In this document: piece after piece, positions 11-54,873 of the stretch
Layout: each line of letters opens with the position of its first letter
How positions within the stretch are numbered: the first letter of the stretch is position 1
DNA from: Actinomycetes bacterium
GTDB lineage: Bacteria; Actinomycetota; Actinomycetes; JAJZTN01
Direction: 5' to 3'
DNA: 64,000 nucleotides
NCBI GenBank assembly: GCA_021848885.1
Contig: JAJZTN010000001.1
Coordinates: 148 to 64,147, forward strand
Translations under genes and position numbers: made by a program
The notes under the pieces: generated by a model
The model's input: the letters and a program-made list of their open reading frames with translations, nothing else
Told to the model about the DNA's origin: nothing
Database searches by the model: none

Positions 11-1480
11 GTGTGCGACGCGGAGGGTGTCGCGGTCGAGCGCACCGTGCTGCCGCTGGTGGTGCGGGCTGGTGGCGGGTCGGTGCGTGACTCCCTGTCG
101 ATCCTCGACCAGCTGCTCGCCGGGGCTGGGCAGGAGGGGGTCACCTACCAGCTCGCCACCGGCCTTCTCGGGTTCACCGACGCCGCCCTGCTCGATGACA
201 TCGTCGACGCCCTGGCCGCGACGGACGGAGCCGAGGTCTTCCGCATCCTCGATCGGGTCATCGAGGCCGGGCACAACCCGCGGCGCTTCGCCGAGGACCT
301 GCTCGAGCGCTTCCGCGATCTCATCGTCATCGACGCGGTGCCCGACGCCGCGGGGGTGATCATTGGCGAGGCGTCGCCGGATCGGCTCGACCGGATGCGC
401 GGGCAGGCCGCCCGGTTCGGCCCGAGCGCGCTGTCGCGGGCCGCTGATCTGGTCAACTCGGGGCTGACCGAGATGCGCGGCACGATGGCCCCGCGGCTGC
501 AGCTCGAGCTGATATGTGCGCGCATCCTGCTGCCCGGTGCCTACGACGACACCCGCAGCCTGCAGGCCCGGCTGGACCGGCTGGAGCGGCGCGTCGGCCT
601 CGCCACCGACGCCGGCGGGGCCAGCGCACCGGCGGCACCGGCGGCACCGGTCGCACCGGCGGCACCGGCGGCACCGGTCGCACCCGCGGAGCCCGCGGCA
701 CCGGTCGCACCCGCGGAGCCCGCGGCACCGGTCGCACCCGCGGAGCCCGCCGGGGAGGCTCAGGCGGGCGACACCGCGACCGCGCCGACCGCGCCGGCCG
801 ACCCACCCGCGCCGACCGCGCCGACCGCGCCGACCGCGCCGACCGCGCCGGGTGGGCTGGACCTCGCCGGCGTACGACGGCTGTGGCCGGACGTGCTCGA
901 CCGGGTCAAGTCGATGAAGCGGCTCACCTGGACCCTGCTCATGCACAACGCCCAGGTGCTCTCGGTGACCGGCGACAGCCTGGTGCTGGGCATGATCAAC
1001 GCGGGTGCGCGGGACTCCTTCGCCCGTGGTGGCAGCCCGGAGATCCTCCGACAGGCGTGCATCGACGTGCTGGGCGTCGACTGGCGGGTCGAGGCCGTCG
1101 TGGACCCCTCGGTGGACGCATCGGTGGGGCCCGGCCGGACCGGGACCACCGGGCCAGGTGGCACCGGCACGCCGGGCCGTCGCATCCCGCGGGGCTCGCG
1201 GCCGGCCGAGGGCGCCGCGGCGGCCGGCACCGGCCCGCACGCGACCGACCCTCACGCAACCGGCCCGCCCAGCACCGACCCGACCGGCACCGGCCCGCAA
1301 GCAACCGGCCCGACCGGCACCGGCCCGACCGGCACCGGCCCGGAGCCGCCGGTGGGGGCGGTGAGCGGGGTCGACGAGGTCTCACCAACCGATCCCGACG
1401 TCGAGGCCGACCTGACCGGGGCCGAGCTGCTGGCCCGCGAGCTGGGTGCCCAGGTGATCCAGGAGTACGACGAGGGCTGA
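11..1480 (+). CDS. dnaX: DNA polymerase III subunit tau/gamma, C-terminal portion (5' end outside window)
   Basis: The translation has the DnaX domain III-V motifs (GGSVRDSLSILDQLL..., RFAEDLLERFRDLIV). A long Ala/Pro-rich tandem-repeat linker follows (APAAPVAPAEP... and TGP repeats), then a conserved C-terminal domain. The ORF is open to the window edge. Confidence 0.85.
   Translation: MCDAEGVAVERTVLPLVVRAGGGSVRDSLSILDQLLAGAGQEGVTYQLATGLLGFTDAALLDDIVDALAATDGAEVFRILDRVIEAGHNPRRFAEDLLERFRDLIVIDAVPDAAGVIIGEASPDRLDRMRGQAARFGPSALSRAADLVNSGLTEMRGTMAPRLQLELICARILLPGAYDDTRSLQARLDRLERRVGLATDAGGASAPAAPAAPVAPAAPAAPVAPAEPAAPVAPAEPAAPVAPAEPAGEAQAGDTATAPTAPADPPAPTAPTAPTAPTAPGGLDLAGVRRLWPDVLDRVKSMKRLTWTLLMHNAQVLSVTGDSLVLGMINAGARDSFARGGSPEILRQACIDVLGVDWRVEAVVDPSVDASVGPGRTGTTGPGGTGTPGRRIPRGSRPAEGAAAAGTGPHATDPHATGPPSTDPTGTGPQATGPTGTGPTGTGPEPPVGAVSGVDEVSPTDPDVEADLTGAELLARELGAQVIQEYDEG
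606..850 (+). repeat. Imperfect tandem nucleotide repeats (about 15-33 nt units) encoding the Ala/Pro-rich linker of DnaX
   Basis: Repeated 'gcaccggcggcaccggtcgcacccgcggagcccgcg' units and 'gcgccgaccgcgccgaccgcg' units are visible. They translate to (APAAPV/APAEP)n and (APT)n. Confidence 0.7.
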
Positions 1481-22492: not shown

Positions 22493-24916
22493 TCAGCCGC
22501 CCGCGGGGAGTGTCGGGCAGTTCTTCTTCTTCGTGCAGGTCGGGCTCGGCAGCGGCAGGATCGTGAACGTCGGGTTCGGCGTCGGTGATGCCGTCATCGT
22601 GGCACCGCTGGTGTCGGTCGGTGTAGGCGTCGGCGTGGGTGTCGGCGGGGTGCCGTTGCTCAGCTGCAGCGCCACCACCTCACCGGAGGCCGCCTTGGCG
22701 CCGGCCGCGGGAGCGGTGGCGGCGACCGTTCCTGCCGGCTGGATGGAGTCGACCATGATCGGGTCGACCTGGGCGAGCAGGCCTACGGCCTGCAGCGCCC
22801 GGGCCGCGTCGGCCGGGGTCATCCCGGTGACGTCGGGGACCGTGACGCCGATGCCGTTGACCACCGTCGGGTCCGGCCCCGGGAAGGTGCTGACCGGGAC
22901 GTTCGCCAGGGCCGCGCTCATCGCCTTCTGCCAGATCGGGCCGGGCAGGCAGCCACCGCACACCTGGGCGTAGTAGCGCCCGCCGATCGTGACGTTGCGC
23001 AGGCTGTAGGTCGCGGTGTCGGGATTGCCGGCCCACACCGCGGCGGAGAGGTCGGGGGTGTAGCCGTCGTACCAGACCGAGACCAACCCGTCGGTGGTGC
23101 CGGTCTTGCCGGCGGCCGGACGACCGATGCCCAGCCGGGCTCCGGTGCCACCGGGCTTCATGACGCCCTGCAGCAGGTAGTTGACCGCGTCGGCCACCTT
23201 CTGCGGGATGGCCTGCTGGCACGAGGGGGCGGGCCGGGCGATCACCGCGTTGTTCCGGTCGACCACCGAGGTGATGACCATCGGGTCACAGTGCAGCCCC
23301 CGGGCGGCGAAGGTGGCGTATGCCTGGGCCATCGTCAACGGCGAGACCGTGGCCACCCCGAGGGTGAACGACTTCACCATCGGAAGTGGTGAGCCGTTGG
23401 CGTTGGTCACCCCGAGGTCGGTGGCGACATGCCAGGGGTCGCACACCCCGACGCGCTGCTCGAGCTGGGCGAAATAGGTGTTGATCGACCCCGCGATGCC
23501 GCTGGCCATCGTGTAGGTGCCGTTCTCCGAGCGCAGCTCGTTGGTGGGCGACCACCGGTCGGTGAGCACCTGCCCGTTGCAGGCTGCCACGTTGCCGATC
23601 TGCACCTGGTAGGGCGCCTTGATCGGGTAGTTCAACGGGTAGCCCTTCTCGATCGCGGCCGCGGCCACGAAGGGCTTGAACGTCGAGCCGGCCTGGAACC
23701 CTCCGCTGGCTCCGTACTTCTGGTCGACCGCGTAGTTGACCGTGGTCTGGCCCTTGCCCTGCCCGTAGGGGCGGCTCTGGGCGATGGCGAGCACCTTGCC
23801 GGTGCCCGGCTGCACCATCGCGATCGCCGAGGCGACCGTGTCGGTTGGGCTGACGAAGGCGTTCACCGCGTCCTGGGCCGCTTTCTGCACATCCGGGTCC
23901 AGCGTGGTGCGGATGGTCAGCCCGCCGCGGCGAAGCAGCTGGGCGCGAGCATCCGGTGTCGAGCCGAACTGCGGGTCGTTCAGGATGGTCTGCTGGATGT
24001 AGTCGCAGAAGAACGGGTAGGGCCCGTTGGCGCAGCCGTTCTCGGTCGGGCTCACCTTCAGCCCGAGCGGGGCCGCCCGGGCGGCCGCGGCCTGTGCGGC
24101 GCTGAGGTGGCCGAGCTCGGCCATCCGTTCCAGCACGATGTTGCGTCGCTGCAGCGCGAGCGTCGGGTCGCGGGTGGGGTCATAGCTGACCGGGGACTGC
24201 ACCAGGCCGGCCAGCAGTGCCGCCTGCGCAAGGGTGAGGTCGGCGGCCGAGACGCTGAAGTAGTGCCGGGCCGCGGCCTCCACGCCGTACGCACCGCTGC
24301 CGAAGTAGGCGATGTTGAGGTAGCGGTTGAGGATCTCGTCCTTGCTGTAGCGCTCCTCCAGCGCGATGGCGTAGCGCAGCTCGCGGATCTTGCGGCCATA
24401 GTCGACCGCCCGCGCGTCCTGCGCGGCCTGGGCGTTGCCGGAGGCGGCCGCGCTCTCCACCAGGACGTTCTTGACGTACTGCTGGGTCAGGGTGGAGCCG
24501 CCCTGCACCGCCTGGCCCGAGGTGTTGCTGACGAAGGCTCGCAGCGTGCCACGCAGGTCCATGCCGCCGTGCTCGTAGAAGCGGGAGTCCTCGATGTCGA
24601 CGATGGCCTGGCGCATCACCGGGGCGATCTGGCTCAGCGGTACGTCGATGCGGTTCTCGAAGTAGAAGGTGGCGATGACGTGGCCCTGGTCGTCGAGGAT
24701 CCTGGTGCGCTGCGGCAGGGCGGGGATGTCCAAGGAGCTGGGCAGCAACTCGAACGAGGCGATGCCCGAGCGGGTGAGCCAGCCCAGGCCCCCGGTGACG
24801 GGGACGAGCAGACCGGCCAGCAGCAGCCCGGCCACGACGGTGAGCACCAGGAAGCCGAACAGCCGACCGAGGTAGCCGCCCGGGGAGGCCAGGCGATTGG
24901 CGGCGGAGCGTGGCAT
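22493..24916 (-). CDS. ponA: Bifunctional class A penicillin-binding protein (PBP1A-type) with C-terminal PASTA domain
   Basis: An N-terminal TM is followed by the glycosyltransferase motifs EDSRFYEHGG and RYLNIAYFG. The transpeptidase motifs are STFKP, SxN and KTGT. The C-terminal PASTA domain is followed by a Pro/Thr-rich tail. The start is taken at MPRSAANR; the ORF extends to 25093. Confidence 0.85.
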   Translation of the reverse strand: MPRSAANRLASPGGYLGRLFGFLVLTVVAGLLLAGLLVPVTGGLGWLTRSGIASFELLPSSLDIPALPQRTRILDDQGHVIATFYFENRIDVPLSQIAPVMRQAIVDIEDSRFYEHGGMDLRGTLRAFVSNTSGQAVQGGSTLTQQYVKNVLVESAAASGNAQAAQDARAVDYGRKIRELRYAIALEERYSKDEILNRYLNIAYFGSGAYGVEAAARHYFSVSAADLTLAQAALLAGLVQSPVSYDPTRDPTLALQRRNIVLERMAELGHLSAAQAAAARAAPLGLKVSPTENGCANGPYPFFCDYIQQTILNDPQFGSTPDARAQLLRRGGLTIRTTLDPDVQKAAQDAVNAFVSPTDTVASAIAMVQPGTGKVLAIAQSRPYGQGKGQTTVNYAVDQKYGASGGFQAGSTFKPFVAAAAIEKGYPLNYPIKAPYQVQIGNVAACNGQVLTDRWSPTNELRSENGTYTMASGIAGSINTYFAQLEQRVGVCDPWHVATDLGVTNANGSPLPMVKSFTLGVATVSPLTMAQAYATFAARGLHCDPMVITSVVDRNNAVIARPAPSCQQAIPQKVADAVNYLLQGVMKPGGTGARLGIGRPAAGKTGTTDGLVSVWYDGYTPDLSAAVWAGNPDTATYSLRNVTIGGRYYAQVCGGCLPGPIWQKAMSAALANVPVSTFPGPDPTVVNGIGVTVPDVTGMTPADAARALQAVGLLAQVDPIMVDSIQPAGTVAATAPAAGAKAASGEVVALQLSNGTPPTPTPTPTPTDTSGATMTASPTPNPTFTILPLPSPTCTKKKNCPTLPAGG

Positions 24917-24960
24917 GCACCGCAGGGTACGTGCTGCACCGTGCCGGGCCCAGTCAGCTC

Positions 24961-25040
24961 GCCCCCCGGCTCCGCCCGTAGGGCCCCCCGGCTCCGCCCG
25001 TAGGGCCCCCCGGCTCCGCCCGTAGGGCCCCCCGCGGGGC
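24961..25040. repeat. Three tandem 22-nt repeats (gccccccggctccgcccgtagg) plus a partial copy in the ponA upstream region
   Basis: Perfect direct repeats are visible in the sequence, about 45-125 bp upstream of the ponA start and 190 bp upstream of the divergent whiB start. Confidence 0.8.
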
Positions 25041-25228
25041 GTGATAACTAGTCCTTTAGAGCTACATGAACATGGACCGATGGGGGCTGTCACGCGCGGT
25101 GGTCATCTCCGTAGCGTGCTGGTATCGACTTGACAGAGACTTTGCTAGACGTTGGGCTGTTCCTGTCGGATGATGACCGGGCCAGGTCGCCCAGGGTGAG
25201 CGCGGCACGGGAGAACGGACGGTCTGCG

Positions 25229-30924: not shown

Positions 30925-31051
30925 GCGACCCTCCTGCTGGCGAGTGATCGCGACCAGTGTGCCGCACGTCCCATCGGTCCGTCGCCCGGGTGGGTGGCCG
31001 TCCTCTGGCGATGTCGGCGCACGGCAACCGGGGACCTGCCCTCGCCTGCCG

Positions 31052-31172
31052 CGACGACCTAACCCCGCCTTCCGCCGCGACCCAACCCCGCCTGCCGCGG
31101 CGACCTAACCCCGCCTTCCGCCGCGACCCAACCCCGCCTGCCGCGGCGACCTAACCGCGCCTGCCGCCGCGG
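31052..31172. repeat. About five tandem copies of an alternating 23-nt repeat (gacctaaccccgccttccgccgc / gacccaaccccgcctgccgcggc) in the crp upstream region
   Basis: The direct repeats are visible on lines 31021-31180. They sit 130-250 bp upstream of the crp start and overlap the 3' end of the next gene. Confidence 0.8.
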
Positions 31173-31825
31173 TCCGGTGTCGGTCGGGGCGGTGGCACGG
31201 GCAGGGCCAGCAGGGCTGCCCGTGGGTCCTCGTGATAGCGCGCGACGAGCTCGCCGGTGGCGGCGTCGATCCGCTCGTGCAGGGCTGTCCGGTAGGCCGA
31301 CATGGCCTCGGCCAGGTCGGTCAGGCGCCCCATGATCTCCTCGGTGGGTTCGGCACCGGACAGGTCGAGATGGCGCCACAGCTTCGCGATGTGTGAGTCC
31401 TCGGCCCGCTCGTCGAAGACCGGGATGGACAGCAGTGCGTCCCGCCGGGCCGTGGTGACCGGGTCGGCCAGCACCCGGCAGAGCCGCTCGACCAGGTCCA
31501 CCTGGTGCTCACCCGGGCCGACCGCTACGTCGGTGAGCGCCAGATCGATCCGACCGTGCAGCAGACGTCGCCAGTAGGAGATCCGCACCTCCTCCGACAT
31601 CAGCGCCGTACGGTAGGCGCGCAGCTCGGCAAGGCTCAGGTGAGCCAGCTCCGGCCGCCGGCAAGGTCGCCCGCGCGCGCGGCGCGCTCGTCCACTCGTC
31701 TCCTGCGACTCCCCCGTGGCGCGTGCTGGGTCTGCCGCTGTGACGGTCACGCTTTTGCCTCCTTGAGTCGTCCCTGGACTCGTCGGGGGCAGCCCGGATC
31801 TTGAGCGGTTCGGGCTCGACCTCAC
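31151..31825 (-). CDS. Hypothetical coiled-coil protein with RsiG-like E/S-x2-R-x3-H-x3-D repeats (start uncertain)
   Basis: Two related helices: ...LAELRAYRTALMSEEVRISYWRRLLHGRIDL... and ...LAEAMSAYRTALHERID.... Both fit S(x)2R(x)3H(x)3D and the first fits E(x)3S(x)2R(x)3H(x)3D, reminiscent of the RsiG c-di-GMP-binding motif E(x)3S(x)2R(x)3Q(x)3D. Confidence 0.45.
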   Translation of the reverse strand: MRSSPNRSRSGLPPTSPGTTQGGKSVTVTAADPARATGESQETSGRARRARGRPCRRPELAHLSLAELRAYRTALMSEEVRISYWRRLLHGRIDLALTDVAVGPGEHQVDLVERLCRVLADPVTTARRDALLSIPVFDERAEDSHIAKLWRHLDLSGAEPTEEIMGRLTDLAEAMSAYRTALHERIDAATGELVARYHEDPRAALLALPVPPPRPTPDRGGRRG

Positions 31826-31865
31826 CCGGAAGGGGCAACGCGAGAACGGCGCTTAGGCTGGACGG

Positions 31866-46583: not shown

Positions 46584-47654
46584 GTGCTGCTCGCCTCGGC
46601 AGATCCGGCCCTGGTCAACCCGGTGCTGGAGGTTGCGGCAACCGTTGACGTCCCGGTCGAGCGGGCCGCCTCGATCGAGGCGGTGCGGGGCCGCTGGTCC
46701 GAGGCGTCGTTGGTGCTGGTCGGCGCCGACCTGGCTGGTGGGCTTTGTGCGGCGCTGTCTGGCAGCTTCGCGGGATCGCCGCGCCCGTCGGGGATCGTGC
46801 TGCTGGCCGGGCAGGAGCGCCCCGAGCTGTGGCGCTGGGCGGTGGAGCTGGGAGCGAGCCGGGTGGCCCTGCTTCCCGAGTGCCGGACGTGGCTGGCCGA
46901 GGCTCTGCCGGCGTACGTGGCCGGGCCGAGGGCATCCCTGGTCGGCGTGATCGGTGGTCGCGGAGGCGCCGGCGCCTCATGCCTGGCGGTCGGGCTGGCG
47001 ATGAGCGGGCGGCGGCTGGGCCACTCGGTTGTGCTGGTCGACGCCGACCCGCTCGGTGGCGGGATCGACCTCGTGGTGGGTGCAGAGCAGTCCGGCGGGC
47101 TGCGCTGGCCCGAGCTGGCGCACGCGGCCGGGCGGATCGCGCCGCAGCCGCTGCTGCAGGCGCTGGTGCAGGCCGACGGGGTGCGGGTGCTCTCATGGGA
47201 CCGAGGTGATCGGTTGGCAGTGCCGGCGGCGGCCGCCCAGGCGGTCACCGCGGCGCTTCGTGCCGCTGCCGACCTCGTTGTGGTGGACCTGCCACGCTCA
47301 GCGGAACCGGCCGCGGACGCCCTCTTGGCTGAGCTGGACCTGCTGCTGCTCGTCGTGCCGGCCGAGGTGCGGGCGAGCGCCGCGGCGGGCAGGGTCGCGA
47401 CCCGGGTTGCCCCGCTGGTCCGTGACGTCCGGCTGGTCGTGCGTGGCCCGGCCCCGGCCGATCTCGAGCCGGAGGTCGTGGCCGAATCGGTCGGGCTGCC
47501 GTTGGCGGCATGGCTGCCGGCCGAGCCCGGCCTCACACAGGCACTGGAGCGTGGTGACCCACCGGCGGCAACCGGTCGGGGGCCGCTCGCGCGGGTCTGC
47601 ACGAGCCTGCTGGCTGGCCTGCCGATCTCGGCTGCGCTCGACGGAGCTGGCTGA
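46584..47654 (+). CDS. Ssd/CpaE-like septum-site-determining ParA/MinD-superfamily ATPase of the Tad locus
   Basis: The deviant Walker A is GGRGGAGAS, within VGVIGGRGGAGASCLAVGLA. A receiver-like N-domain precedes it. The start is uncertain; the ORF runs from 46416. Confidence 0.65.
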   Translation: MLLASADPALVNPVLEVAATVDVPVERAASIEAVRGRWSEASLVLVGADLAGGLCAALSGSFAGSPRPSGIVLLAGQERPELWRWAVELGASRVALLPECRTWLAEALPAYVAGPRASLVGVIGGRGGAGASCLAVGLAMSGRRLGHSVVLVDADPLGGGIDLVVGAEQSGGLRWPELAHAAGRIAPQPLLQALVQADGVRVLSWDRGDRLAVPAAAAQAVTAALRAAADLVVVDLPRSAEPAADALLAELDLLLLVVPAEVRASAAAGRVATRVAPLVRDVRLVVRGPAPADLEPEVVAESVGLPLAAWLPAEPGLTQALERGDPPAATGRGPLARVCTSLLAGLPISAALDGAG

Positions 47655-48913
47655 TGGGTCCTCACCGGGGCCTTGAGATGGGCCGTGCCGATGAGCTGGG
47701 CCGATGGGCGGAGCCGATCAGTCTCGACGTTGTCGGACCTGAGCTGTCTGTCCGGCTCCTCGAGGACGTCCGGGCCCATCTGGTGCGCAACGGTTCCGAC
47801 CCGGGACCGATGGAGGTCGCTGCGGCTCTGCGCGAGCAGGGTCTCGTGCTTGCCGATGACCAGCTTGCCCGGCTGACCGGGCTCGTCCGGCAGGAGCTAA
47901 CCGGGGCAGGGCCCCTCGAGCACCTGCTGCGCTGCCCGGGAGTCACCGACGTGCTCGTCAACGGCCCCGACGAGGTGTGGCTGGACCGCGGCACTGGCTT
48001 GGAGCGCACCGAGCTGCGGCTCGGTGACGAGGCGGCGGTGCGTCGGCTGGCCCAACGCCTGGCGGTCAGTGCCGGGCGCAGGCTCGACGATGCCTCGCCG
48101 TACGTCGACGCCCAGCTTCCCGACGGGAGCAGGCTGCATGCGGTGCTGCCTCCACTGTCGGTGGGTGGCACCGTGCTCTCGCTGCGGGTGCCACGGCGCC
48201 TCGCGATGAGCCTGGCTGACCTCGCCGCCGCCGGGGCACTGTCCGGGGGCATGCAGGCGACCCTGGCCAGTCTCGCCCGCGCCAAGGTCGCGCTGCTGGT
48301 CACCGGCGGGACCGGGTCGGGCAAGACCACGTTGCTGTCCGCCTTGGTCGGGGCCGGTGACCCAACTGAGCGGGTGGTCGTGGTGGAGGACTGCGCCGAG
48401 ATGGTCACCGACCACCCCCATGTGCTGCGGCTGCAGGCCCGCCCCGCCAATGTCGAGGGGCGCGGCGAGGTCACCATGCGTGAGCTGGTCCGTCAGGCGT
48501 TGCGGATGCGCCCGGACCGGCTCGTCGTGGGGGAGGCCAGGGGGGCCGAGATCGTGGAGCTGCTGGCCGCTCTGAACACCGGGCACGAGGGTGGTCTGGC
48601 GACCCTGCACGCCAACGAGGTGAGCGATGTCCCGGCGCGGGTGGAGGCGCTCGCCCTGCCGACCGGCATGCCGCGTGGTGCTGTGCACGCGCAGCTGGGT
48701 GCCGGTGTGCAGGCGGTGGTGCACGTGGTGCGCGAAGCGGGTGCGCGAAGGGTGGCAACCCTTGGATGGGTCCGCCGCGGGCCGACGGGGGTCAGCGTCG
48801 TGCCGGCACTGACCCAGACCGCGGACCTGCGTCTGCTCCCGGGCCCGGCGGTCGAGCAGCTCGGTGCTCGCCTGGGCAAGGCCCCGTGGCTGGTCGGCCC
48901 GCGGGAATCGTGA
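47654..48913 (+). CDS. tadA: TadA/CpaF-family type II/IV secretion ATPase
   Basis: Walker A GGTGSGKTT, Asp box, Walker B VVVEDCAEM and His box LNTGHEGGLATLHAN. The start overlaps the Ssd stop. Confidence 0.9.
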   Translation: MGPHRGLEMGRADELGRWAEPISLDVVGPELSVRLLEDVRAHLVRNGSDPGPMEVAAALREQGLVLADDQLARLTGLVRQELTGAGPLEHLLRCPGVTDVLVNGPDEVWLDRGTGLERTELRLGDEAAVRRLAQRLAVSAGRRLDDASPYVDAQLPDGSRLHAVLPPLSVGGTVLSLRVPRRLAMSLADLAAAGALSGGMQATLASLARAKVALLVTGGTGSGKTTLLSALVGAGDPTERVVVVEDCAEMVTDHPHVLRLQARPANVEGRGEVTMRELVRQALRMRPDRLVVGEARGAEIVELLAALNTGHEGGLATLHANEVSDVPARVEALALPTGMPRGAVHAQLGAGVQAVVHVVREAGARRVATLGWVRRGPTGVSVVPALTQTADLRLLPGPAVEQLGARLGKAPWLVGPRES

Positions 48914-49683
48914 GCGCTCTCCTGCTCGCCGCGCTCGCGACGGGGCTGGCGACCGCGATGCTGGTCGGCCATCCCGGGGCCGGGACGGCTCGACTGCGCC
49001 GGCTGACCTCAGGGTTGGCGGCCTCGGCCCGGCCGCCGGGCGAGGAGCCGAGCCGGTCAACCGGGTCAGCCCGCCGCGCCCCCAGGGTGACGGTCAGGGG
49101 CTGGCGGCGCCCGGGCCTGACGGGCTCGCTGGCTCGCGACCGTCGGCAAGCGGTGGTCGAGCTGTGCGCGGCGGTCTCGACCGAGCTTGGAGCGGGGCAA
49201 CCACCGCAGCTGGCGTTGGTCTCGGCGGTTCGCTTTCTCGGCGACCCGGCCGATCTGGCGGAGCTGCTTCGCCCCGCCCTGGCGGTGGCTCACTCGGGCG
49301 GTGACGTCGCGCAGGAGCTGCGGCGGGTGGCTGGGCTTCCCGGTGCCGAGGGCCTGGGCGCGGTGGCCGCGTGCTGGGAGGCCACCCAGGCCACCGGGTC
49401 GGGGTTGTCCACCGCTCTGGGTCGGGTTGGCGAGGCGCTGCGGGCCGAGCTGGAGCACCGGCGTGACATCGAGACGGAGCTTGCCGGGCCCCGGGCCAGC
49501 GCCCGACTGCTGGTGCTGCTCCCCGCGGTCGGGGTGCTGCTGGGTCTCGGCTTGGGCGTCGACCCGCTCGGCTGGCTGCTCGGAACAGTGCCGGGCCGCA
49601 TCGTCGCCGCCGTCGGCGTGGGTCTGGACCTGCTCGGTGCGTGGTGGGTGGCCCGGCTGGTCCGTGTCGCCGTCGATGACTGA
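48910..49683 (+). CDS. tadB: TadB-like type II secretion system F-domain membrane protein
   Basis: A polytopic membrane protein following tadA. The GTG start overlaps the tadA stop. Confidence 0.7.
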   Translation: MSALLLAALATGLATAMLVGHPGAGTARLRRLTSGLAASARPPGEEPSRSTGSARRAPRVTVRGWRRPGLTGSLARDRRQAVVELCAAVSTELGAGQPPQLALVSAVRFLGDPADLAELLRPALAVAHSGGDVAQELRRVAGLPGAEGLGAVAACWEATQATGSGLSTALGRVGEALRAELEHRRDIETELAGPRASARLLVLLPAVGVLLGLGLGVDPLGWLLGTVPGRIVAAVGVGLDLLGAWWVARLVRVAVDD

Positions 49684-49694
49684 CCGGGACGGGG

Positions 49695-50516
49695 GTGTCT
49701 GTGCTCGTCAGGACCAGCTGGCCCGTGCTGCTGGCTTGCAGCCTTCTCGTCATCGCAACCGCCCTGCCCGGCATCGCGCGTGCTGCCGCCAAGCGGCGGC
49801 TGGGTGGGCTGAACCGCCGCGTGGCTGCTGTGCGCCAGCCGGCCCGGTCGGGATCGCCGTCCCCGCGCTCCCTCGGCTGGACTGGGCGAGTCGCGGCAGG
49901 CCCCTTCGGGGCGCTGGACTCGGCGATGCTGGCCAGCATCACGTTGGCAGCGGCGGTGGCCCTGCTGCTCCCGGCGCCGCTGGGGGTGACGGCCGGGCTG
50001 ATCGTCACCATGGTGCTGCCCGGGCGGTTGCGTCGGCTCGAACCGACCGTGAAGCGGCGGGAACGGCAGCGCATCGCAGCCGACGCCCCGTTGGCGGCTG
50101 AGCTCTTCGCAGCCTGCGTGCTCGGTGGGGCCGATCCGGTCTCCGCAAGCGGTGTGGTCGCCCGCGCCGTCGGCGGCCCGCTGGGGCGCCGCCTCGAGGC
50201 TGCCGGCACCGCGATCCGTCTGGGCTCAGACCCCGCCGTGGTGTGGGCCGGACTGGGCAGCGAGGCGAGCCTGGCGGGCTGGGGCTCGATGCTTGCTCGG
50301 GCGAGCAGCAGCGGCGCTCCCGTCGCCACGATGGTGCTCGCCTTGGCCGAGCAGGCCCGTGTCGCGCGTCGTAGCCGACGGGCCGCGGCCATCCGTCGAG
50401 CGTCGGTCTGGGCGACTGTGCCGCTCGGGGTGTGCTTCCTTCCGGCCTTCTTTCTGCTGGGTGTCGTGCCGGTCGCCGTGAGTGTGGCCGGGCCCGTCCT
50501 GGGGTTGCTGCGCTGA
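49695..50516 (+). CDS. tadC: TadC-like type II secretion system F-domain membrane protein
   Basis: A hydrophobic N-terminus plus a T2SSF-like C-terminal TM pair, in operon context after tadB. Confidence 0.7.
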   Translation: MSVLVRTSWPVLLACSLLVIATALPGIARAAAKRRLGGLNRRVAAVRQPARSGSPSPRSLGWTGRVAAGPFGALDSAMLASITLAAAVALLLPAPLGVTAGLIVTMVLPGRLRRLEPTVKRRERQRIAADAPLAAELFAACVLGGADPVSASGVVARAVGGPLGRRLEAAGTAIRLGSDPAVVWAGLGSEASLAGWGSMLARASSSGAPVATMVLALAEQARVARRSRRAAAIRRASVWATVPLGVCFLPAFFLLGVVPVAVSVAGPVLGLLR

Positions 50517-50726: not shown

Positions 50727-50906
50727 ATGATGAGTGTCCTGACCCGGTTGCGCCGCGGCGAGGCCGGCATGACCACGGCGGAGTACGCCGTGGGGACCGT
50801 TGCCGCCTGCGGGTTCGGCGGTGTGCTGCTCAAGCTGCTGACCAGCGACACGGTCGTCCGGCTGATCACTGACCTGATCCGCCGAGCGCTGTCGCTGGCG
50901 ATCTGA
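50727..50906 (+). CDS. Flp-like pilin / DUF4244 small protein
   Basis: MMSVLTRLRRGEAGMTTAEYAVGTVAACGFGGVLLKLL... carries the GMTTAEYA pre-pilin-like motif of Flp / DUF4244 proteins. A GGAGG RBS lies upstream. Confidence 0.6.
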   Translation: MMSVLTRLRRGEAGMTTAEYAVGTVAACGFGGVLLKLLTSDTVVRLITDLIRRALSLAI

Positions 50907-51031
50907 GCGGGCACGTCCCGGTTGGGTGGTGGCCGTCGCGACTGCCACCACCCAGCCGGGCTGCGCGAGGACGGGGTGGGGCCCCGACGGACCGGTCGTC
51001 ACGACTGGAGGCCGGCGCCGCCACGGTCGAG

Positions 51032-51346
51032 GTGGCTGTGCTGCTGCCAGCCGTGGTGCTGGCGTTCCTGGCGGGCTCGTGGGGGGTGGGTGCGGTGACT
51101 GCACAGATGAGATGCGTCGACGCGGCACGCGAGGTGGCCAGGGCGATCGCTCGCGGCGAGCAGCCGGGCGACGCGCGGGGGCTGGCCGGCATGCTCGCCC
51201 CGGGCTCGGCTCGTGTCGAGGTCAGCGAGGGTGAGGGCCTGGTGCGGGTGACCGTCCGGGCGCCGATCCGGCTGCCGGGCACGCTCGGGCGGGTGTGGCC
51301 GGCTGTGGAGGTGTCCGGATCGGCGACCACTGTGGCCGAGCCGTGA
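51032..51346 (+). CDS. TadE-like protein (N-terminus probably extends upstream; no canonical start found)
   Basis: The in-frame upstream sequence ...DRSSRLEAGAATVEVAVLLPAVVLAFLAG... matches the TadE motif (G-S/A-A-T-V-E plus hydrophobic helix). The ORF-track start is at 51032 (GTG). Confidence 0.55.
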   Translation: MAVLLPAVVLAFLAGSWGVGAVTAQMRCVDAAREVARAIARGEQPGDARGLAGMLAPGSARVEVSEGEGLVRVTVRAPIRLPGTLGRVWPAVEVSGSATTVAEP

Positions 51347-51496
51347 CGCGAGCCGTGACGCGAACCGCGACACGAGCCGCGACACGAGCAGTGACACGAG
51401 ACGCGCCACGAGCAGTGACACGAGCAGTGACACGAGCAGTGACACGAGACGCGCCACGAGACGCGCCACGAGACGCGCCACGGGCCGTGACGCGGG
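51338..51496 (+). repeat. 12-nt minisatellite of about 13 copies (agcagtgacacg / agccgtgacgcg / agacgcgccacg variants), in frame, encoding (A/D)(V/A)(T/P)R tetrapeptide repeats
   Basis: The 12-nt periodicity is directly visible on lines 51301-51481. In the +frame of ORF 51295..51855 it translates AVTRAVTRTATRAATRAVTRDAPRAVTRAVTRAVTRDAPRDAPRDAPRAVTR. Several units contain in-frame GTG codons. Confidence 0.9.
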
Positions 51497-51855
51497 AGCG
51501 ATGCCGCCGAGAGTCCGGATCCGCCGGCCTGGCGGTGCTGGCCGTCGCGGCGGGCATCGGGTTGCTCGGGCTGTTCGCCGCCGTGCTCGGCACGGTCGCG
51601 GTGGCGCGGCACAGTGCCGCCGCGGCGGCCGACCTGGCGGCTCTGGGGGCCGCCGAGTCGATGGCCGCCGGTCCGCAGGCCGCCTGCCGACAGGCGGCCC
51701 GGCTGGCCACTGCGATGGGGGTGGCGCTGGCCGAGTGCCGGCCGGGGCCACCCGGTGCGGTGCTCGTCGTCGTGCAGGCCCGGCCGTGGCGGGCCCAGCT
51801 GCTCGGTCGCACGGTGCTCCTTCCCGGGCCGCGAGTCACGGCCAGGGCCGGTTGA
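51487..51855 (+). CDS. TadE/TadG-like secreted protein (pseudopilin-like); true start ambiguous
   Basis: The C-terminal 110 aa (RESGSAGLAVLAVAAGIGLLGLFAAVLGTVAVARHSAAAAADLAALGAAE...) match the TadE-like family. The start may be any in-frame GTG in the upstream minisatellite, or the ATG at 51295. Confidence 0.5.
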   Translation: MTRERCRRESGSAGLAVLAVAAGIGLLGLFAAVLGTVAVARHSAAAAADLAALGAAESMAAGPQAACRQAARLATAMGVALAECRPGPPGAVLVVVQARPWRAQLLGRTVLLPGPRVTARAG

Positions 51856-51960
51856 AGCCACTTCCCAGGCCGCGAGTCACTCCCCGGGCCGGGGCGGCGG
51901 GGCCAGGGCCGGTTGAAGCCACTTCCCAGGCCGCGAGCCACTTCCCGGGCCGCGAGTCAC
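51841..51960. repeat. About 60-nt tandem duplication (ccagggccggttgaagccacttcccaggccgcgag[t/c]cact...gggccggggcggcgggg) in the convergent intergenic region
   Basis: The direct repeat lies between the TadE-like stop and the helicase stop. Confidence 0.7.
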
Positions 51961-54392
51961 TGCCCGGGCCGGGGCGGCGGGGCCGCCTCGTCGGTCGGCG
52001 GTGCTCCCTCCAGCAGCACGTCGAGCAGGGCGAGGGCCCCGCCCTTGTCCAGCGGGTCGTTGCCGTTGCCGCACTTGGGTGACTGCACGCACGAGGGGCA
52101 CCCGGTGGCGCACCCGCACAGGCCGATCGCCTCGCGTGTGGCGCGCAGCCAGGGCAGCGCAGAGTCGAAGCCGCGCTCGGCGAAGCCTGCTCCGCCGGGG
52201 TGCCCGTCATGGACGAAGACGGTGGCCCGCCCGGTGTCGGGGTGCATGGCGGTGGAGACACCCCCGACGTCCCAGCGGTCGCAGGTGGCCAGCAGAGGCA
52301 GAAGCCCGATCGCGGCGTGCTCGGCGGCGTGGGTGGCGCCGGGGACCGCGGCCTCGTCGAGCCCCGCTGCGTCGAGCTGGTCGTCATCGGCGGTCCACCA
52401 CACCGCCGTGGTGCGCAGGATGCGTGTCGGCAGGTCCAGTGGCTGCTGACCCAAGGACTGCCCGGTCAGCACCCGCCGCCGGGTGAAGGAGACGACCTGA
52501 CTGGTCACCTCCACCACCCCGAGGCTCAGCTCGGTGCGACCCCAACCGCGCCGACGAAGCGTCTGCAGCACTCGCAGGTCGCTGACCTGGTGGGCCGAGG
52601 TGGTCCAGTCGATGTCCGGGGCCGCCCGGACGTGCGCAACGTTCTCGCTCAGGTCCAGCCGCTCCACCAGGAAGCTCTCCCCCTGGTGCAGGTAGACCGC
52701 CCCGTCATGGACGCTGCCGTGGGCCGCGGAGGGGTCGACGGTGCCAAGCAGACGGCCGGTGCCGACCTCGACCACCCGCACCGCCGCACCGCCGGCCCCG
52801 CGCAGGTCGGCCAGGTCGCTGGCCCGCTCCGGCCGGGTCCAGAACCAGCCGGCCGGACGTCGGCGCAGCTGGCCCGCCGCGCACAGCCGGTCCAGGATCG
52901 TCTCGGTGCCCGGGCCGAACATGGCCAGCTCGGGCTCGGTCAGCGGCAGCTCGGCCGCCGCCGCGGCCAGGTGCGGGGCCAGGACATAAGGGTTCTCCGG
53001 GTCCAGCACGCTCGCCTCGACCGGCCGGTCCAGAAGTGCCTGCGGGTGGTGCACGAGGTAGGTGTCCAGCGGGTCGTCGCGGGCGACGAGAACGCCCAGG
53101 GACTCGCCTTGCCCGCGCCCGGCCCGTCCGATCTGCTGCCAGAACGAGGCACGGGTGCCCGGGTAGCCGGCCAGCAGCACGGCGTCGAGCCCGGCGATGT
53201 CGACGCCGAGCTCGAGTGCGCTGGTGGTGGCCAGCCCGAGCAGTCGGCCCGAGCGCAGCCGGGCCTCCAGCGCGCGGCGTTCCTCGGGAAGGTAACCGGC
53301 CCGGTAGGCGGCCACCCGCTCGGTCAGTCCCTCGTCGACCTCGGCCAGCAGTCGCCGGGCTCCCAGCGCCACCGCCTCGGCGCCCCGGCGGGACCGTACG
53401 AAGCCCAGCGTGCGCACGCCCGCCACGACCAGGTCGGCCAACAGCTCGGCGGTCTCGGCGGTCGCGGTCCGGCGCACCGGTGCCCCGTCCTCGCCGCGAG
53501 CCTCGCTCAGCGGTGGCTCCCACAGCGCCACCACGGTGCGCCCGCGCGGGGAGGCGTCCGCGTGCACCGCCGCGACGTCGAGTCCGGTCAGCCGTCGCGC
53601 CGAGTGCTCGGGGTCTGCGACGGTCGCCGAGGCGAGCACGAAGGTCGGCTCTGCCCGGTAGCGGGCCGCCACCCGGCGCAACCTGCGCAGCACTGCCGCC
53701 ACGTGCGAGCCGAAGACGCCGCGGTAGACGTGGCACTCGTCGACCACGACATAGCGAAGCGCGCGCAGGAACGAGGCCCACGACTCGTGCCCCGGCAGCA
53801 CCCCGTGGTGCAGCATGTCCGGGTTGGTCAGGACGTACGCCGCGTGGGCCCGCACCCAGGACCGGTCCCCGATCGGGGTGTCCCCGTCGTAGGTGGCGGC
53901 ACGTACCTCGGGCAGGCTCAGGCCCGCCAACCGGTGCAGCTGGTCGGCGGCCAGCGCTTTCGTCGGCGCCAGGTAGAGCACCGTGGCGCCGCGCCCGCTC
54001 GGGGCCGTCTGGCCCTGCAGCACCGCGGTCAACCCCGGCAGCAGATAGGCCAGGGACTTGCCCGAGGAGGTGCCGGTGGCGAGCACGACGTGCACCCCCG
54101 CGTGAGCCAGCTCGGCGGCTCGCACCTGGTGGAGCCACGGGCGTTGGACGCCGGTGCGCTCAAGTGCCCCGCGCAGCCGCGGGTCCACCCAGTCGGGCCA
54201 CTCCGCGTTGACCGCGGCGCGAGCCGGGAGCACCGCCGTGTGCACTAGCCGATCGGATCGCCGCGGAGCGCCCAGCAGCGCAGCCAGCGCGGGGCTTGGC
54301 GAGGCGTCGGAGACAGCCAGCGCGGGGCTTGGCGAGGCGTCGGATGACGGCTCGCCCGGGTGGCCGGTCGGCTCTGGTCGGGTCTCAGACAT
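51957..54392 (-). CDS. DEAD/DEAH-box helicase with C-terminal DUF1998 zinc-ribbon domain (MrfA-like)
   Basis: Walker A ATGTSSGKS, DECH box, helicase C domain, and C-terminal CGCATGCPSCVQSPKCGNGNDPLDK. The start is taken at MSETRPEP; the ORF extends to 54575. Confidence 0.85.
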   Translation of the reverse strand: MSETRPEPTGHPGEPSSDASPSPALAVSDASPSPALAALLGAPRRSDRLVHTAVLPARAAVNAEWPDWVDPRLRGALERTGVQRPWLHQVRAAELAHAGVHVVLATGTSSGKSLAYLLPGLTAVLQGQTAPSGRGATVLYLAPTKALAADQLHRLAGLSLPEVRAATYDGDTPIGDRSWVRAHAAYVLTNPDMLHHGVLPGHESWASFLRALRYVVVDECHVYRGVFGSHVAAVLRRLRRVAARYRAEPTFVLASATVADPEHSARRLTGLDVAAVHADASPRGRTVVALWEPPLSEARGEDGAPVRRTATAETAELLADLVVAGVRTLGFVRSRRGAEAVALGARRLLAEVDEGLTERVAAYRAGYLPEERRALEARLRSGRLLGLATTSALELGVDIAGLDAVLLAGYPGTRASFWQQIGRAGRGQGESLGVLVARDDPLDTYLVHHPQALLDRPVEASVLDPENPYVLAPHLAAAAAELPLTEPELAMFGPGTETILDRLCAAGQLRRRPAGWFWTRPERASDLADLRGAGGAAVRVVEVGTGRLLGTVDPSAAHGSVHDGAVYLHQGESFLVERLDLSENVAHVRAAPDIDWTTSAHQVSDLRVLQTLRRRGWGRTELSLGVVEVTSQVVSFTRRRVLTGQSLGQQPLDLPTRILRTTAVWWTADDDQLDAAGLDEAAVPGATHAAEHAAIGLLPLLATCDRWDVGGVSTAMHPDTGRATVFVHDGHPGGAGFAERGFDSALPWLRATREAIGLCGCATGCPSCVQSPKCGNGNDPLDKGGALALLDVLLEGAPPTDEAAPPPRPGQ

Positions 54393-54534
54393 CGACGGCA
54401 GTGTGCGCCACCGGGGCTGAGGCGCTCCCGGGTGGTTGAATGCCGGGTATCTGGACAGCATGGACTGCACGGCGTCATGACGCAGGACCGACACGCTTTC
54501 GCGAGATCTTCGGCCGAGTCCGACTGGAGGCACT

Positions 54535-54873
54535 GTGGACCTGACCCTGTCGACCCGTGAGGAGGGCGGGCGCACCGTCGTCGAGGTCGGCGGCGAGATC
54601 GACGTCTACACCGCGCCGAAGTTGCGCGAGCAGCTCGTCGACCTGGTCGCGCAAGGCCAGTACCACCTCGTCGTGGACATGCAAGGGGTGGACTTCCTCG
54701 ACTCCACCGGCCTGGGGGTCCTGGTCGGGGGACTCAAACGGGTGCGTGCACACGACGGCTCGCTGCGCCTGGTCTGCTCCCAGGAGCGCATCCTGAAGAT
54801 CTTCCGGATAACGGGGCTCACCAAGGTGTTCCCGATCCACGACTCCGTGGCCGACGCGGTCGCAGCCGAGTGA
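54535..54873 (+). CDS. STAS-domain anti-sigma-factor antagonist (RsbV/SpoIIAA-like)
   Basis: 112 aa. The conserved phospho-Ser context reads [13 protein letters not shown]. Confidence 0.85.

What the first reader, a model, noticed from the sequence alone, without database searches (positions are those of the whole stretch)
51338..51496. In-frame 12-nt minisatellite (~13 copies) at the junction of two TadE-like genes in the Tad/Flp pilus locus
- A perfectly phased 12-nt repeat, with variants agcagtgacacg, agccgtgacgcg and agacgcgccacg, starts at the stop codon of the TadE-like gene.
- It runs ~160 nt into the next ORF, translating in that frame as (A/D)(V/A)(T/P)R x13.
- The downstream protein is a TadE/TadG-like secreted (pseudopilin-type) protein; its recognisable domain begins right after the repeat.
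- The unit length is a multiple of 3 and most units carry an in-frame GTG.
- Copy-number slippage would therefore change either the length of an N-terminal tetrapeptide-repeat extension or the choice and spacing of the start codon, without breaking frame.
- That is a plausible contingency locus (VNTR) acting on a surface or pilus-associated protein. It may also form a structured RNA element inside the operon.
- I am not aware of a described repeat at this position in Tad loci.
Basis: seen in the sequence. Interest (0 to 1): 0.65.

Follow-up and report, generated by a model that had tools for sequence, protein, structure and literature searches.

The report
Tandem-amplified stop/start junction between pilin genes
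The 12 bases that hold the overlapping stop and start codons of two neighbouring pilus genes have been copied 13 times in a row; the array is real and a tidy curiosity, but it shows no sign of varying between strains and is probably a tolerated extension of a disposable leader peptide.

Summary
The repeat is real: 13 phased 12-nt units at 51337-51492 (TRF score 156-191; shuffled windows reach at most 71). It lies between a TadE_Rv3655c-type gene and an Rv3654c-family gene of the actinobacterial Tad/helicase neighbourhood.

In 38 of 55 other actinobacterial loci these two genes share an in-frame GTGA or ATGA stop/start overlap. About 20 nt then separate the upstream stop from the downstream conserved core. 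Here that distance is 164 nt, which is 20 + 12x12. The array is therefore a slipped-strand amplification of the 12 nt spanning that overlap.

The first GTG (51343) keeps the overlap with the upstream stop. The last GTG (51487) keeps the ancestral N-terminus. No candidate start has its own Shine-Dalgarno sequence. Translation therefore most likely begins at the coupled first GTG. That would add up to 48 Arg-rich residues ahead of a conserved, prepilin-like Gly-Ser site.

Sister lineages lack the array or carry unrelated in-frame insertions at the same junction. Long leaders are common in the family.

Three near-identical assemblies differ by SNPs and one 15-nt indel, yet all carry exactly 13 copies. 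The contingency-locus idea has no support so far, and the RNA-element idea is weak.

The parts
51337..51492 (+). 12-nt minisatellite, 13 units. The edge units (1, 2, 13) are of the ancestral type CG(A/G)GCCGTGACG. The interior holds runs of variant units: CGAGCAGTGACA x4, CGAGACGCGCCA x4 and CGA(A/G)CCGCGACA x2.
   Evidence: TRF; phased unit listing; identical in L001-L003; no other copy of the unit dimers in the window.
51343..51346 (+). First GTGA. The TGA stop of the Rv3655c-like gene (51344-46) overlaps a GTG (51343-45) that is in the frame of the Rv3654c-like gene. This keeps the ancestral -4 coupled geometry. The same GTGA recurs at 51355, 51391, 51415, 51427, 51439 and 51487.
   Evidence: Sequence. 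An in-frame NTGA overlap occurs at this junction in 38 of 55 relatives and in the sister lineages L089/L090/L091/L092 and L094-96.
51032..51346 (+). TadE_Rv3655c-type minor pilin gene (upstream gene). The array leaves its C-terminus ...TTVAEP* untouched.
   Evidence: NF041390, 95.1 bits against a cutoff of 40; Pfam TadE. Sister proteins P0123/P0124 are 70/68% identical.
51343..51855 (+). Longest coupled reading of the Rv3654c-family gene (170 aa). The leader is M-TR-(AVTR/TATR/AATR/DAPR)x12-ERCRRESG, i.e. 56 residues before the conserved core.
   Evidence: Frame is open. The first GTG is the start nearest the upstream stop. No candidate start has SD pairing above background. Inference from termination-reinitiation behaviour reviewed in PMC12548453.
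51487..51855 (+). Shortest reading of the same gene (122 aa, MTRERCRRESGSAG...). This is the ancestral N-terminus and is what gene callers annotate (P0001).
   Evidence: Gene calls in L001-L003. Homologous to the sister start MRQRGEAGSAG in L089. Eight codons precede the core, against a family median of 14 as called.
51511..51852 (+). Conserved Rv3654c-family core. It has the motif E-S-G-S-A (Gly codon 51517-19) followed by a hydrophobic helix, AGLAVLAVAAGIGLLGLFAAVLG. The Gly|Ser bond is a putative prepilin-type cleavage point.
   Evidence: TIGR03816, 65.3 bits against a cutoff of 50.95, model positions 1-108 of 109. Gly is conserved in 50 of 51 relatives within [DE]-R-G-[SA]-[AG]-T-V-W. Cleavage is inferred, not shown.
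51823..51971 (+). Second array, at the 3' end of the same gene (19/61-nt period). An exact 37-mer containing the gene's own stop codon (TGA 51853-55) recurs at 51840 and 51901.
   Evidence: TRF; exact-match search.
50727..50906 (+). Flp-like pilin (DUF4244). It has a strong SD and served as the anchor for exact-protein look-ups.
   Evidence: PF14029, 81.9 bits; SD pairing -12.9 kcal/mol.
47654..48913 (+). TadA-family ATPase (context: start of the tad-like operon segment).
   Evidence: TIGR03819, 459.7 bits.
51957..54575 (-). Convergent DEAH-box helicase of the 'helicase/secretion neighbourhood'.
   Evidence: TIGR03817, 1189.8 bits.

Best explanation
The array is a young minisatellite made by replication slippage. 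The slippage amplified the 12 bp that span the GTGA stop/start overlap between the Rv3655c-like and Rv3654c-like pseudopilin genes.

Shown:
- The ancestral state was a single GTGA overlap with about 8 codons before the conserved core.
- The window has 12 extra units (144 nt) inserted exactly there.
- The upstream protein is unchanged.
- The downstream frame stays open.
- The first GTG keeps the coupled -4 geometry and the last GTG keeps the ancestral N-terminus.
- The array arose after the split from the nearest sampled lineages and went through several rounds of slippage, as shown by runs of identical variant units.

Inferred, about 55-60% likely:
- No candidate GTG has its own Shine-Dalgarno sequence, and re-initiating ribosomes take the start nearest the stop. 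Translation therefore starts mainly at the first (or second) GTG.
- The array would then be translated as an Arg-rich tetrapeptide-repeat leader. It adds up to 48 residues (12 Arg, 4 Asp) on the cytoplasmic side of the N-terminal helix.

Inferred, less certain:
- The leader precedes a conserved [DE]xG|[SA] site that resembles a prepilin-peptidase site. The leader may therefore be removed, or be irrelevant to the mature protein.
- That would explain why this junction tolerates insertions in many lineages.

Net effect: a tolerated, near-neutral expansion that survived a selection filter. Only duplications that preserve both the stop and an in-frame start persist at a zero-length intergenic junction. 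It is not a demonstrated switch.
For: - Junction geometry in 55 genomes: 38 have an in-frame GTGA (27) or ATGA (11) overlap. The median distance from stop to core is 20 nt; the window has 164 = 20 + 144.
- Sister lineage L089/L090 has a plain ATGA overlap and starts MRQRGEAGSAG, homologous to the window's last-GTG start. L091 has GTGA followed by an unrelated ~146-nt in-frame insertion.
- Independent repeats at the same junction: L013, 12-nt CCCGTGAACCGG x3.2; L025, 16 nt; L010, 22 nt x2; L021, 18 nt x2.5.
- L013, L014, L025 and L091 have no in-frame start closer than 33, 19, 24 and 26 codons to the core. Long leaders must therefore be translated in those relatives.
- Called leaders across 146 family representatives have a median of 14 residues; 24 are at least 35 and 10 are at least 56 residues.
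- SD pairing of all seven GTGs is -2.2 to -4.1 kcal/mol, against a background mean of -4.5 and -12.9 for Flp.
- The review PMC12548453 reports that -4 NTGA is the commonest coupled spacing, that coupling falls with distance, and that a scanning ribosome uses the start nearest the stop.
- Gly is conserved in 50 of 51 relatives.
- The window is rich in tandem duplications at gene ends.
Against: - There is no direct evidence for which GTG is used.
- GC3 in the array in the downstream frame is 0.50, against 0.88 in the flanking coding sequence. This shows no codon adaptation; that is expected for a young array but is also what an untranslated spacer would show.
- Gene callers choose the last GTG.
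- A modest predicted hairpin covers the first units and could hinder initiation there.
- The Gly|Ser site lacks the Glu at +5 that is typical of Flp/TadE substrates.
- A motif search found no prepilin peptidase in the window.
- Enrichment of repeats at this junction (14.5% of bases against 2.2%) is measured against mostly coding flanks, so it is only suggestive.
Confidence: 0.65

Rival explanations
1. Untranslated intercistronic spacer. The downstream gene starts only at the last GTG (51487). The array is a 140-nt non-coding insertion that uncouples it from the upstream gene and probably lowers its translation.
For: - Gene callers annotate the 122-aa product.
- The last GTG reproduces the ancestral N-terminus and the family-typical short leader.
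- GC3 in the array in that frame is only 0.50.
Against: - The last GTG has no SD (-3.0 kcal/mol) and lies +141 nt from the stop, where coupling is weak.
- Six in-frame GTGs with equal or better context lie upstream of it, the first at the -4 position.
- Relatives demonstrably translate long leaders from the overlap.
Confidence: 0.25
2. Contingency locus (VNTR). Frequent slippage changes copy number within populations. This tunes leader length, or the dosage of the minor pseudopilin relative to its partner.
For: - The unit is a multiple of 3, and runs of 3-4 identical units show repeated slippage in the past.
- Each GTGA unit is a potential restart site.
- The same junction has expanded independently in other lineages.
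- The gene belongs to a surface-organelle locus.
Against: - All four full-length copies have exactly 13 units, although they differ by SNPs and by a 15-nt indel elsewhere.
- The left part of the array is identical in four further samples.
- Copy-number change would not switch anything on or off because the frame is kept.
- The affected segment is a leader outside the conserved core.
- The genome carries many similar arrays at gene ends, so a specific adaptive role is not required.
Confidence: 0.1
3. Structured RNA, or a protein-binding iteron array, acting inside the operon (for example as a processing or regulatory site).
For: MFE is -80.5 kcal/mol against -71.9 +/- 3.9 for shuffles, z = -2.2. 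The spacing is regular at 12 nt.
Against: - 3 of 200 shuffles fold as well.
- There is no Rfam family above noise; the best hits are miRNA models at 18-22 bits against gathering scores of 83-90.
- The array is absent from sister lineages, so there is no conservation or covariation to support a structure.
- There are no promoter- or terminator-like sites.
Confidence: 0.04

Closest known systems
MIRUs (mycobacterial interspersed repetitive units) at intercistronic junctions
   Same: Both are actinobacterial tandem repeats sitting at stop/start junctions inside operons. Both preserve -4 (NTGA) translational coupling, so that the insertion is tolerated (as summarised in PMC12548453).
   Different: - MIRUs are roughly 40-100-bp units (own knowledge), dispersed at many loci and apparently mobile. 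They carry their own small ORF, coupled on both sides.
- Here the unit is 12 nt and derives from the local junction itself.
- It is not found elsewhere in the window.
- It is fused in frame to the downstream gene and does not form a separate mini-ORF.
In-frame coding VNTRs such as the 12-bp vrrA repeat of Bacillus anthracis (own knowledge, not checked here)
   Same: Both are short units whose length is a multiple of three, amplified in tandem within an ORF. Both change protein length without a frameshift.
   Different: - Those loci are defined by copy-number polymorphism between strains, which was not seen here.
- Here the unit contains a stop codon in one frame and a start codon in another, and it lies at a gene boundary.
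Simple-sequence contingency loci of Neisseria/Haemophilus (own knowledge)
   Same: Both are tandem repeats associated with surface-structure genes.
   Different: - Classic contingency repeats have units that are not multiples of three, or lie in promoters, so that slippage switches expression on and off.
- This array preserves frame, and no variation was observed.
Variable-length leader peptides of type IV prepilins/pseudopilins (Flp/TadE/TadF class; own knowledge)
   Same: Both have a basic N-terminal leader, then an invariant Gly, then a hydrophobic helix. Leader length varies widely in the family.
   Different: - The Rv3654c family lacks the Glu at +5.
- Cleavage has not been shown for this family.
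- A leader built from a still-recognisable tandem repeat has not, to my knowledge, been described.

Membership tests
Rv3654c-family TadE-like protein (TIGR03816), downstream gene | HMM score above the curated cutoff over the full model | tested here: met
   65.3 bits against a cutoff of 50.95, model positions 1-108 of 109, residues 73-186 of ORF 51295-51855.
Rv3654c-family TadE-like protein (TIGR03816), downstream gene | Genomic neighbourhood with a TadA-type ATPase (TIGR03819) and a DEAH helicase (TIGR03817) | tested here: met
   Both are present above cutoff, at 47654-48913 and 51957-54575(-).
TadE_Rv3655c minor pilin (NF041390), upstream gene | HMM score above the cutoff | tested here: met
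   95.1 bits against a cutoff of 40. However, there is no canonical start upstream of its G/AATVE motif.
VNTR / contingency locus | Tandem array of short units beyond chance | tested here: met
   TRF score 156-191, against at most 71 in 20 shuffles.
VNTR / contingency locus | Copy-number polymorphism among closely related strains or within populations | tested here: inconclusive
   4 of 4 full-length copies have 13 units despite SNPs and one indel elsewhere. Only near-clonal assemblies were available and no reads.
VNTR / contingency locus | Copy-number change alters expression or the product in a selectable way | not testable with these tools
   This needs reporters or proteomics. By sequence, only the leader length or the start spacing would change.
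MIRU-type intercistronic repeat | Located at a stop/start junction of co-transcribed genes with -4 coupling preserved | tested here: met
   The first unit keeps the GTGA overlap.
MIRU-type intercistronic repeat | Dispersed family of units of tens of bp, present at many loci | tested here: not met
   The unit is 12 nt. No other match of the unit dimers (up to 4 mismatches) occurs in the 64-kb window. The array is absent from sister lineages.
MIRU-type intercistronic repeat | Own small ORF terminated before or at the downstream start | tested here: not met
   In the downstream frame the array has no stop and runs into the gene.
Type IV prepilin-like leader | Invariant Gly at -1, followed by a hydrophobic helix | tested here: met
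   Gly in 50 of 51 relatives; the window reads ESG|SAGLAVLAVAAGIGLL.
Type IV prepilin-like leader | Glu at +5, and cleavage by a prepilin peptidase | tested here: not met
   Position +5 is Ala (S-A-G-L-A). A motif search found no A24-peptidase-like gene in the window. Cleavage itself is not testable here.
Known structured RNA (Rfam) | Match reaching a family's gathering score | tested here: not met
   Best matches are 18-22 bits against gathering scores of 49-90.

The most novel reading that the evidence does not exclude
The NTGA junction between the Rv3655c-type and Rv3654c-type pseudopilin genes may be a recurrent, selected hot-spot for in-frame repeat expansion across Actinobacteria. On this reading the 13-unit array, with its seven reiterated stop/start overlaps, works as a heritable 'coupling rheostat'. 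Copy number would set how many ribosomes restart, and how long a basic leader the minor pseudopilin carries. That would tune pilus or secretion-apparatus stoichiometry, making the array a true contingency locus of a new geometry.
Probability: 0.1. Interest if true: 0.55.

Novelty: new member of a known kind. Interest (0 to 1): 0.28.

Why it matters
If the reading is right, this is an unusually clear record of how a zero-length gene junction can expand. Only a duplication that carries both the stop and the start survives, and the result is a gene with seven equivalent restart sites.

That makes it a ready-made natural test for models of termination-reinitiation and start-site choice in high-GC bacteria.

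It also shows that the leader of Rv3654c-family proteins is a length-hypervariable segment. Homologues of this family are reported as secreted anti-apoptotic factors in M. tuberculosis (PMC2864267).

It does not at present reveal a new regulatory mechanism or a new kind of element.

Tried and rejected
- Homology search with the 186-aa ORF was swamped by low-complexity words and returned only the self cluster.
These were useful for junction statistics but not for within-species comparison.
- The TadA protein search showed that the lineage is isolated. The nearest hit is 83% identical, on a 2.3-kb contig too short to reach the junction.
- The metagenome scan with the upstream protein gave only 47-48% relatives.
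- The break of the Logan contigs inside the array was considered as possible biological heterogeneity. It was rejected because it coincides with the only 32-nt exact internal repeat, a k=31 graph branch.
- RNA structure, Rfam and the promoter/terminator scan gave nothing convincing.
- A regex search for a prepilin-peptidase GxGD motif in six frames found nothing credible.
- A synonymous/non-synonymous count among unit variants gave about 3 synonymous to 4 non-synonymous inferred events, read by hand from the units. That is too few to say anything.
- Assembly artefact was rejected. Three independent assemblies, including a k141 MEGAHIT contig, reproduce the array exactly.
- The exhaustive HMMER search with array plus core found no family member whose leader is homologous to the array. 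Only unrelated low-complexity proteins matched residues 1-53.

Full report
**Observation**

The window has 72% G+C. TRF reports an array at 51337-51491 with period 12, 12.9 copies, 84% matches and score 156, or 191 when read as period 48. Twenty Markov-shuffled windows gave maximum scores of 42-71, and 29-49 rows against 97 in the real sequence.

Read in phase from 51337 there are 13 units. Units 1, 2 and 13 are CG(A/G)GCCGTGACG. The interior holds CGA(A/G)CCGCGACA (x2), CGAGCAGTGACA (x4) and CGAGACGCGCCA (x4). There are runs of three identical units at 51421-51444 and 51445-51480.

**Context**

The locus is the conserved actinobacterial 'helicase/secretion neighbourhood':

| Feature | Coordinates |
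|---|---|
| TadA-type ATPase (TIGR03819) | 47654-48913 |
| Two T2SSF proteins | 48766-49683 and 49695-50516 |
| DUF4244 Flp-like pilin | 50727-50906 |
| TadE_Rv3655c-type minor pilin (NF041390) | ends with TGA at 51344-46 |
| Rv3654c-family protein (TIGR03816) | model position 1 at nt 51511 |
| Convergent DEAH helicase (TIGR03817) | 51957-54575, minus strand |

In M. tuberculosis the homologous seven-gene operon is co-transcribed, and Rv3654c/Rv3655c are reported as secreted (PMC2864267).

**What the unit is**

Every GTGA-bearing unit carries a TGA in the upstream gene's frame and a GTG in the downstream gene's frame.

I located both genes in 55 other actinobacterial genomes (tblastn). In 38 of them the upstream stop and the downstream start form an in-frame GTGA (27) or ATGA (11) overlap. 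The median distance from the stop to the conserved core of the downstream protein is 20 nt. In the window that distance is 164 nt, which is 20 + 144, or exactly twelve extra 12-nt units.

Removing the twelve extra units restores ...GCC GAG CCG TGA overlapping GTG ACG CGG GAG..., which reads MTRERCRRESGSAG.

The nearest sampled lineages confirm this:
- L089/L090, whose upstream protein is 68% identical, have a plain ATGA overlap followed by MRQRGEAGSAG.
- L092 and L094-96 likewise have plain overlaps.
- L091 (70% identical) has a GTGA overlap followed by an unrelated ~146-nt in-frame insertion carrying its own 21-nt duplication.

The array is therefore a lineage-specific slipped-strand amplification of the stop/start overlap. 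The runs of identical variant units show several rounds of slippage.

**Is the junction special?**

Independent events occur at the same place:
- Yinghuangia L013 has a 12-nt CCCGTGAACCGG repeat (x3.2) starting at the GTGA.
- L025 has a 16-nt repeat, L010 a 22-nt duplication and L021 an 18-nt x2.5 repeat. All span or abut the overlap.
- Actinomadura, Spirillospora and Nonomuraea loci have 400-1100-nt gaps holding 15-32-nt arrays.

Tandem repeats cover 14.5% of junction-zone bases against 2.2% elsewhere in the loci. The comparison set is mostly coding, so this is suggestive only.

The window itself is rich in tandem duplications at gene ends:
- 31029-31171 spans the stop of one minus-strand ORF.
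- An exact 37-mer containing the downstream gene's own stop codon recurs at 51840 and 51901.
- A perfect 33-nt in-frame duplication sits in the helicase N-terminus.

The simplest reading is a mutation-prone, tolerant genome combined with a selection filter. At a zero-length junction, only duplications that keep both a stop and an in-frame start survive.

**Which start is used (inference)**

In-frame GTGs lie 56, 52, 40, 32, 28, 24 and 8 codons before the core. None pairs with the anti-SD better than background: -2.2 to -4.1 kcal/mol, against a background mean of -4.5 and -12.9 for the Flp start. Initiation must therefore depend on the upstream ribosome.

The review PMC12548453 states three relevant points:
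- -4 NTGA is the commonest coupled spacing.
- Coupling falls with distance.
- When two starts are offered, the ribosome uses the one nearest the stop.

That favours the first GTG (51343), whose upstream context is identical to the ancestral one. The product would then be 170 aa, with a leader M-TR-(AVTR/TATR/AATR/DAPR)x12-ERCRRESG. The leader has 12 Arg and 4 Asp in its 48 extra residues.

Long leaders are real in this family. In L013, L014, L025 and L091 there is no in-frame start closer than 33, 19, 24 and 26 codons to the core. Among 146 family representatives the called leader has a median of 14 residues, with 24 at 35 or more and 10 at 56 or more.

The leader ends at a [DE]-R-G-[SA]-[AG]-T-V-W motif with Gly in 50 of 51 relatives, followed by a hydrophobic helix. 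This resembles a prepilin cleavage site, although Glu at +5 is missing and cleavage is untested.

Evidence against translation of the array:
- GC3 in the array is only 0.50 in that frame, against 0.88 for the flanking coding sequence.
- Gene callers pick the last GTG, giving P0001 of 122 aa.
- A modest hairpin covers the first units.

I put the translated-leader reading at about 55-60% and the untranslated-spacer reading at about 25%.

**Variability**

Exact-protein look-ups found three other assemblies spanning the array: GCA_027393435.1, GCA_027447745.1 and ERZ27237461. They are 99.6-99.96% identical to the window. They have 1-3 SNPs each, and L002 carries a 15-nt imperfect tandem insertion in TadC at ~49856. 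All have exactly 13 units with no mismatch in the array.

Four Logan contigs share the left part and end at 51410, at the k=31 branch point.

No closer relatives exist in the searched collections. The nearest TadA is 83% identical, and the rest are 64% or less. The contingency-locus hypothesis therefore has no positive support, and the test has little power.

**RNA element**

The fold z-score is -2.2, with 3 of 200 shuffles as good. Rfam gives only sub-threshold miRNA noise. There are no promoter- or terminator-like sites, and the array is not conserved in sister lineages. This reading is unlikely.

**Comparison with known elements**

The array works most like a MIRU-type intercistronic repeat, in that it is tolerated because -4 coupling is preserved. 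It fails two MIRU membership tests: it is not a dispersed family, and it has no ORF of its own.

It has the form of an in-frame coding VNTR, but the defining polymorphism was not seen.

I file it as a new member of a known kind: a minisatellite at a gene boundary. Its unusual feature is that the unit is the stop/start overlap itself.

**Verdict**

The array is real, well explained in origin, probably near-neutral, and of modest interest.

Noticed in passing
window 50906-51038: The TadE_Rv3655c-type gene has no ATG, GTG or TTG upstream of its conserved prepilin-like motif (EAG/AATVEVAVLLP). The frame is open from the Flp stop at 50906, but the first canonical start is the GTG at 51032, inside the motif. 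Gene callers start at 51038, which has SD-like pairing of -10.4 kcal/mol. Sister proteins P0123/P0124 have normal 17-34-residue leaders. The cause is either a non-canonical start (CTG at 51005) or a leaderless, truncated pseudopilin in this lineage. The sequence is identical in L001-L003.
   Followed up: partly
window 51823-51971: A second array sits at the 3' end of the Rv3654c-family gene. An exact 37-mer, GGCCAGGGCCGGTTGAAGCCACTTCCCAGGCCGCGAG, contains the gene's stop codon and occurs at 51840 and 51901, within a looser 19-nt periodicity. Both ends of this small gene are thus flanked by duplications of its terminal codons. L001 differs from the window by one SNP here (51899).
   Followed up: partly
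window 54281-54344 (- strand gene): A perfect 33-nt tandem duplication lies in frame in the N-terminal extension of the DEAH helicase (SDASPSPALAV x2), upstream of the TIGR03817 core.
   Followed up: no
window 31029-31171: A 23/46-nt array (x6.2) spans the stop of minus-strand ORF 31151-31852 and the region upstream of the next minus-strand ORF. On the coding strand most units contain GGTTAGG (TAG). This is another array that begins at a gene's stop codon.
   Followed up: partly
window 24961-25034: A 22-nt unit is repeated 3.4 times at 100% identity, near the 5' end of a long minus-strand open frame (22493-25102). It was not characterised.
   Followed up: no
L002 ~1-700 / window ~49856: Strain-level polymorphism: L002 (GCA_027447745.1) carries a 15-nt imperfect tandem insertion (GCCGTCCCCGACCGG next to GCCGTCCCCGCGC) in the TadC-like gene, giving 278 instead of 273 aa. 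Slippage indels therefore do segregate in this population even though the 12-nt array does not vary.
   Followed up: yes
L038 11527-11673; L062 11914-12036; L063 9924-10049; L087 9990-10081; L051 10916-11007: Actinomadura, Spirillospora and Nonomuraea genomes have 400-1100-nt spacers between the two TadE-like genes. The spacers are filled with 15-32-nt tandem arrays; for example L038 has a 23-nt unit x6.4 at 99% identity. It was not examined whether these are regulatory, mobile or neutral.
   Followed up: no
window 625-850 and 1229-1342: Dense 9/27-nt and 15/45-nt repeats lie inside a GC3 = 0.90 plus-strand ORF (2-1480). This is a low-complexity, repeat-rich protein and was not identified.
   Followed up: no
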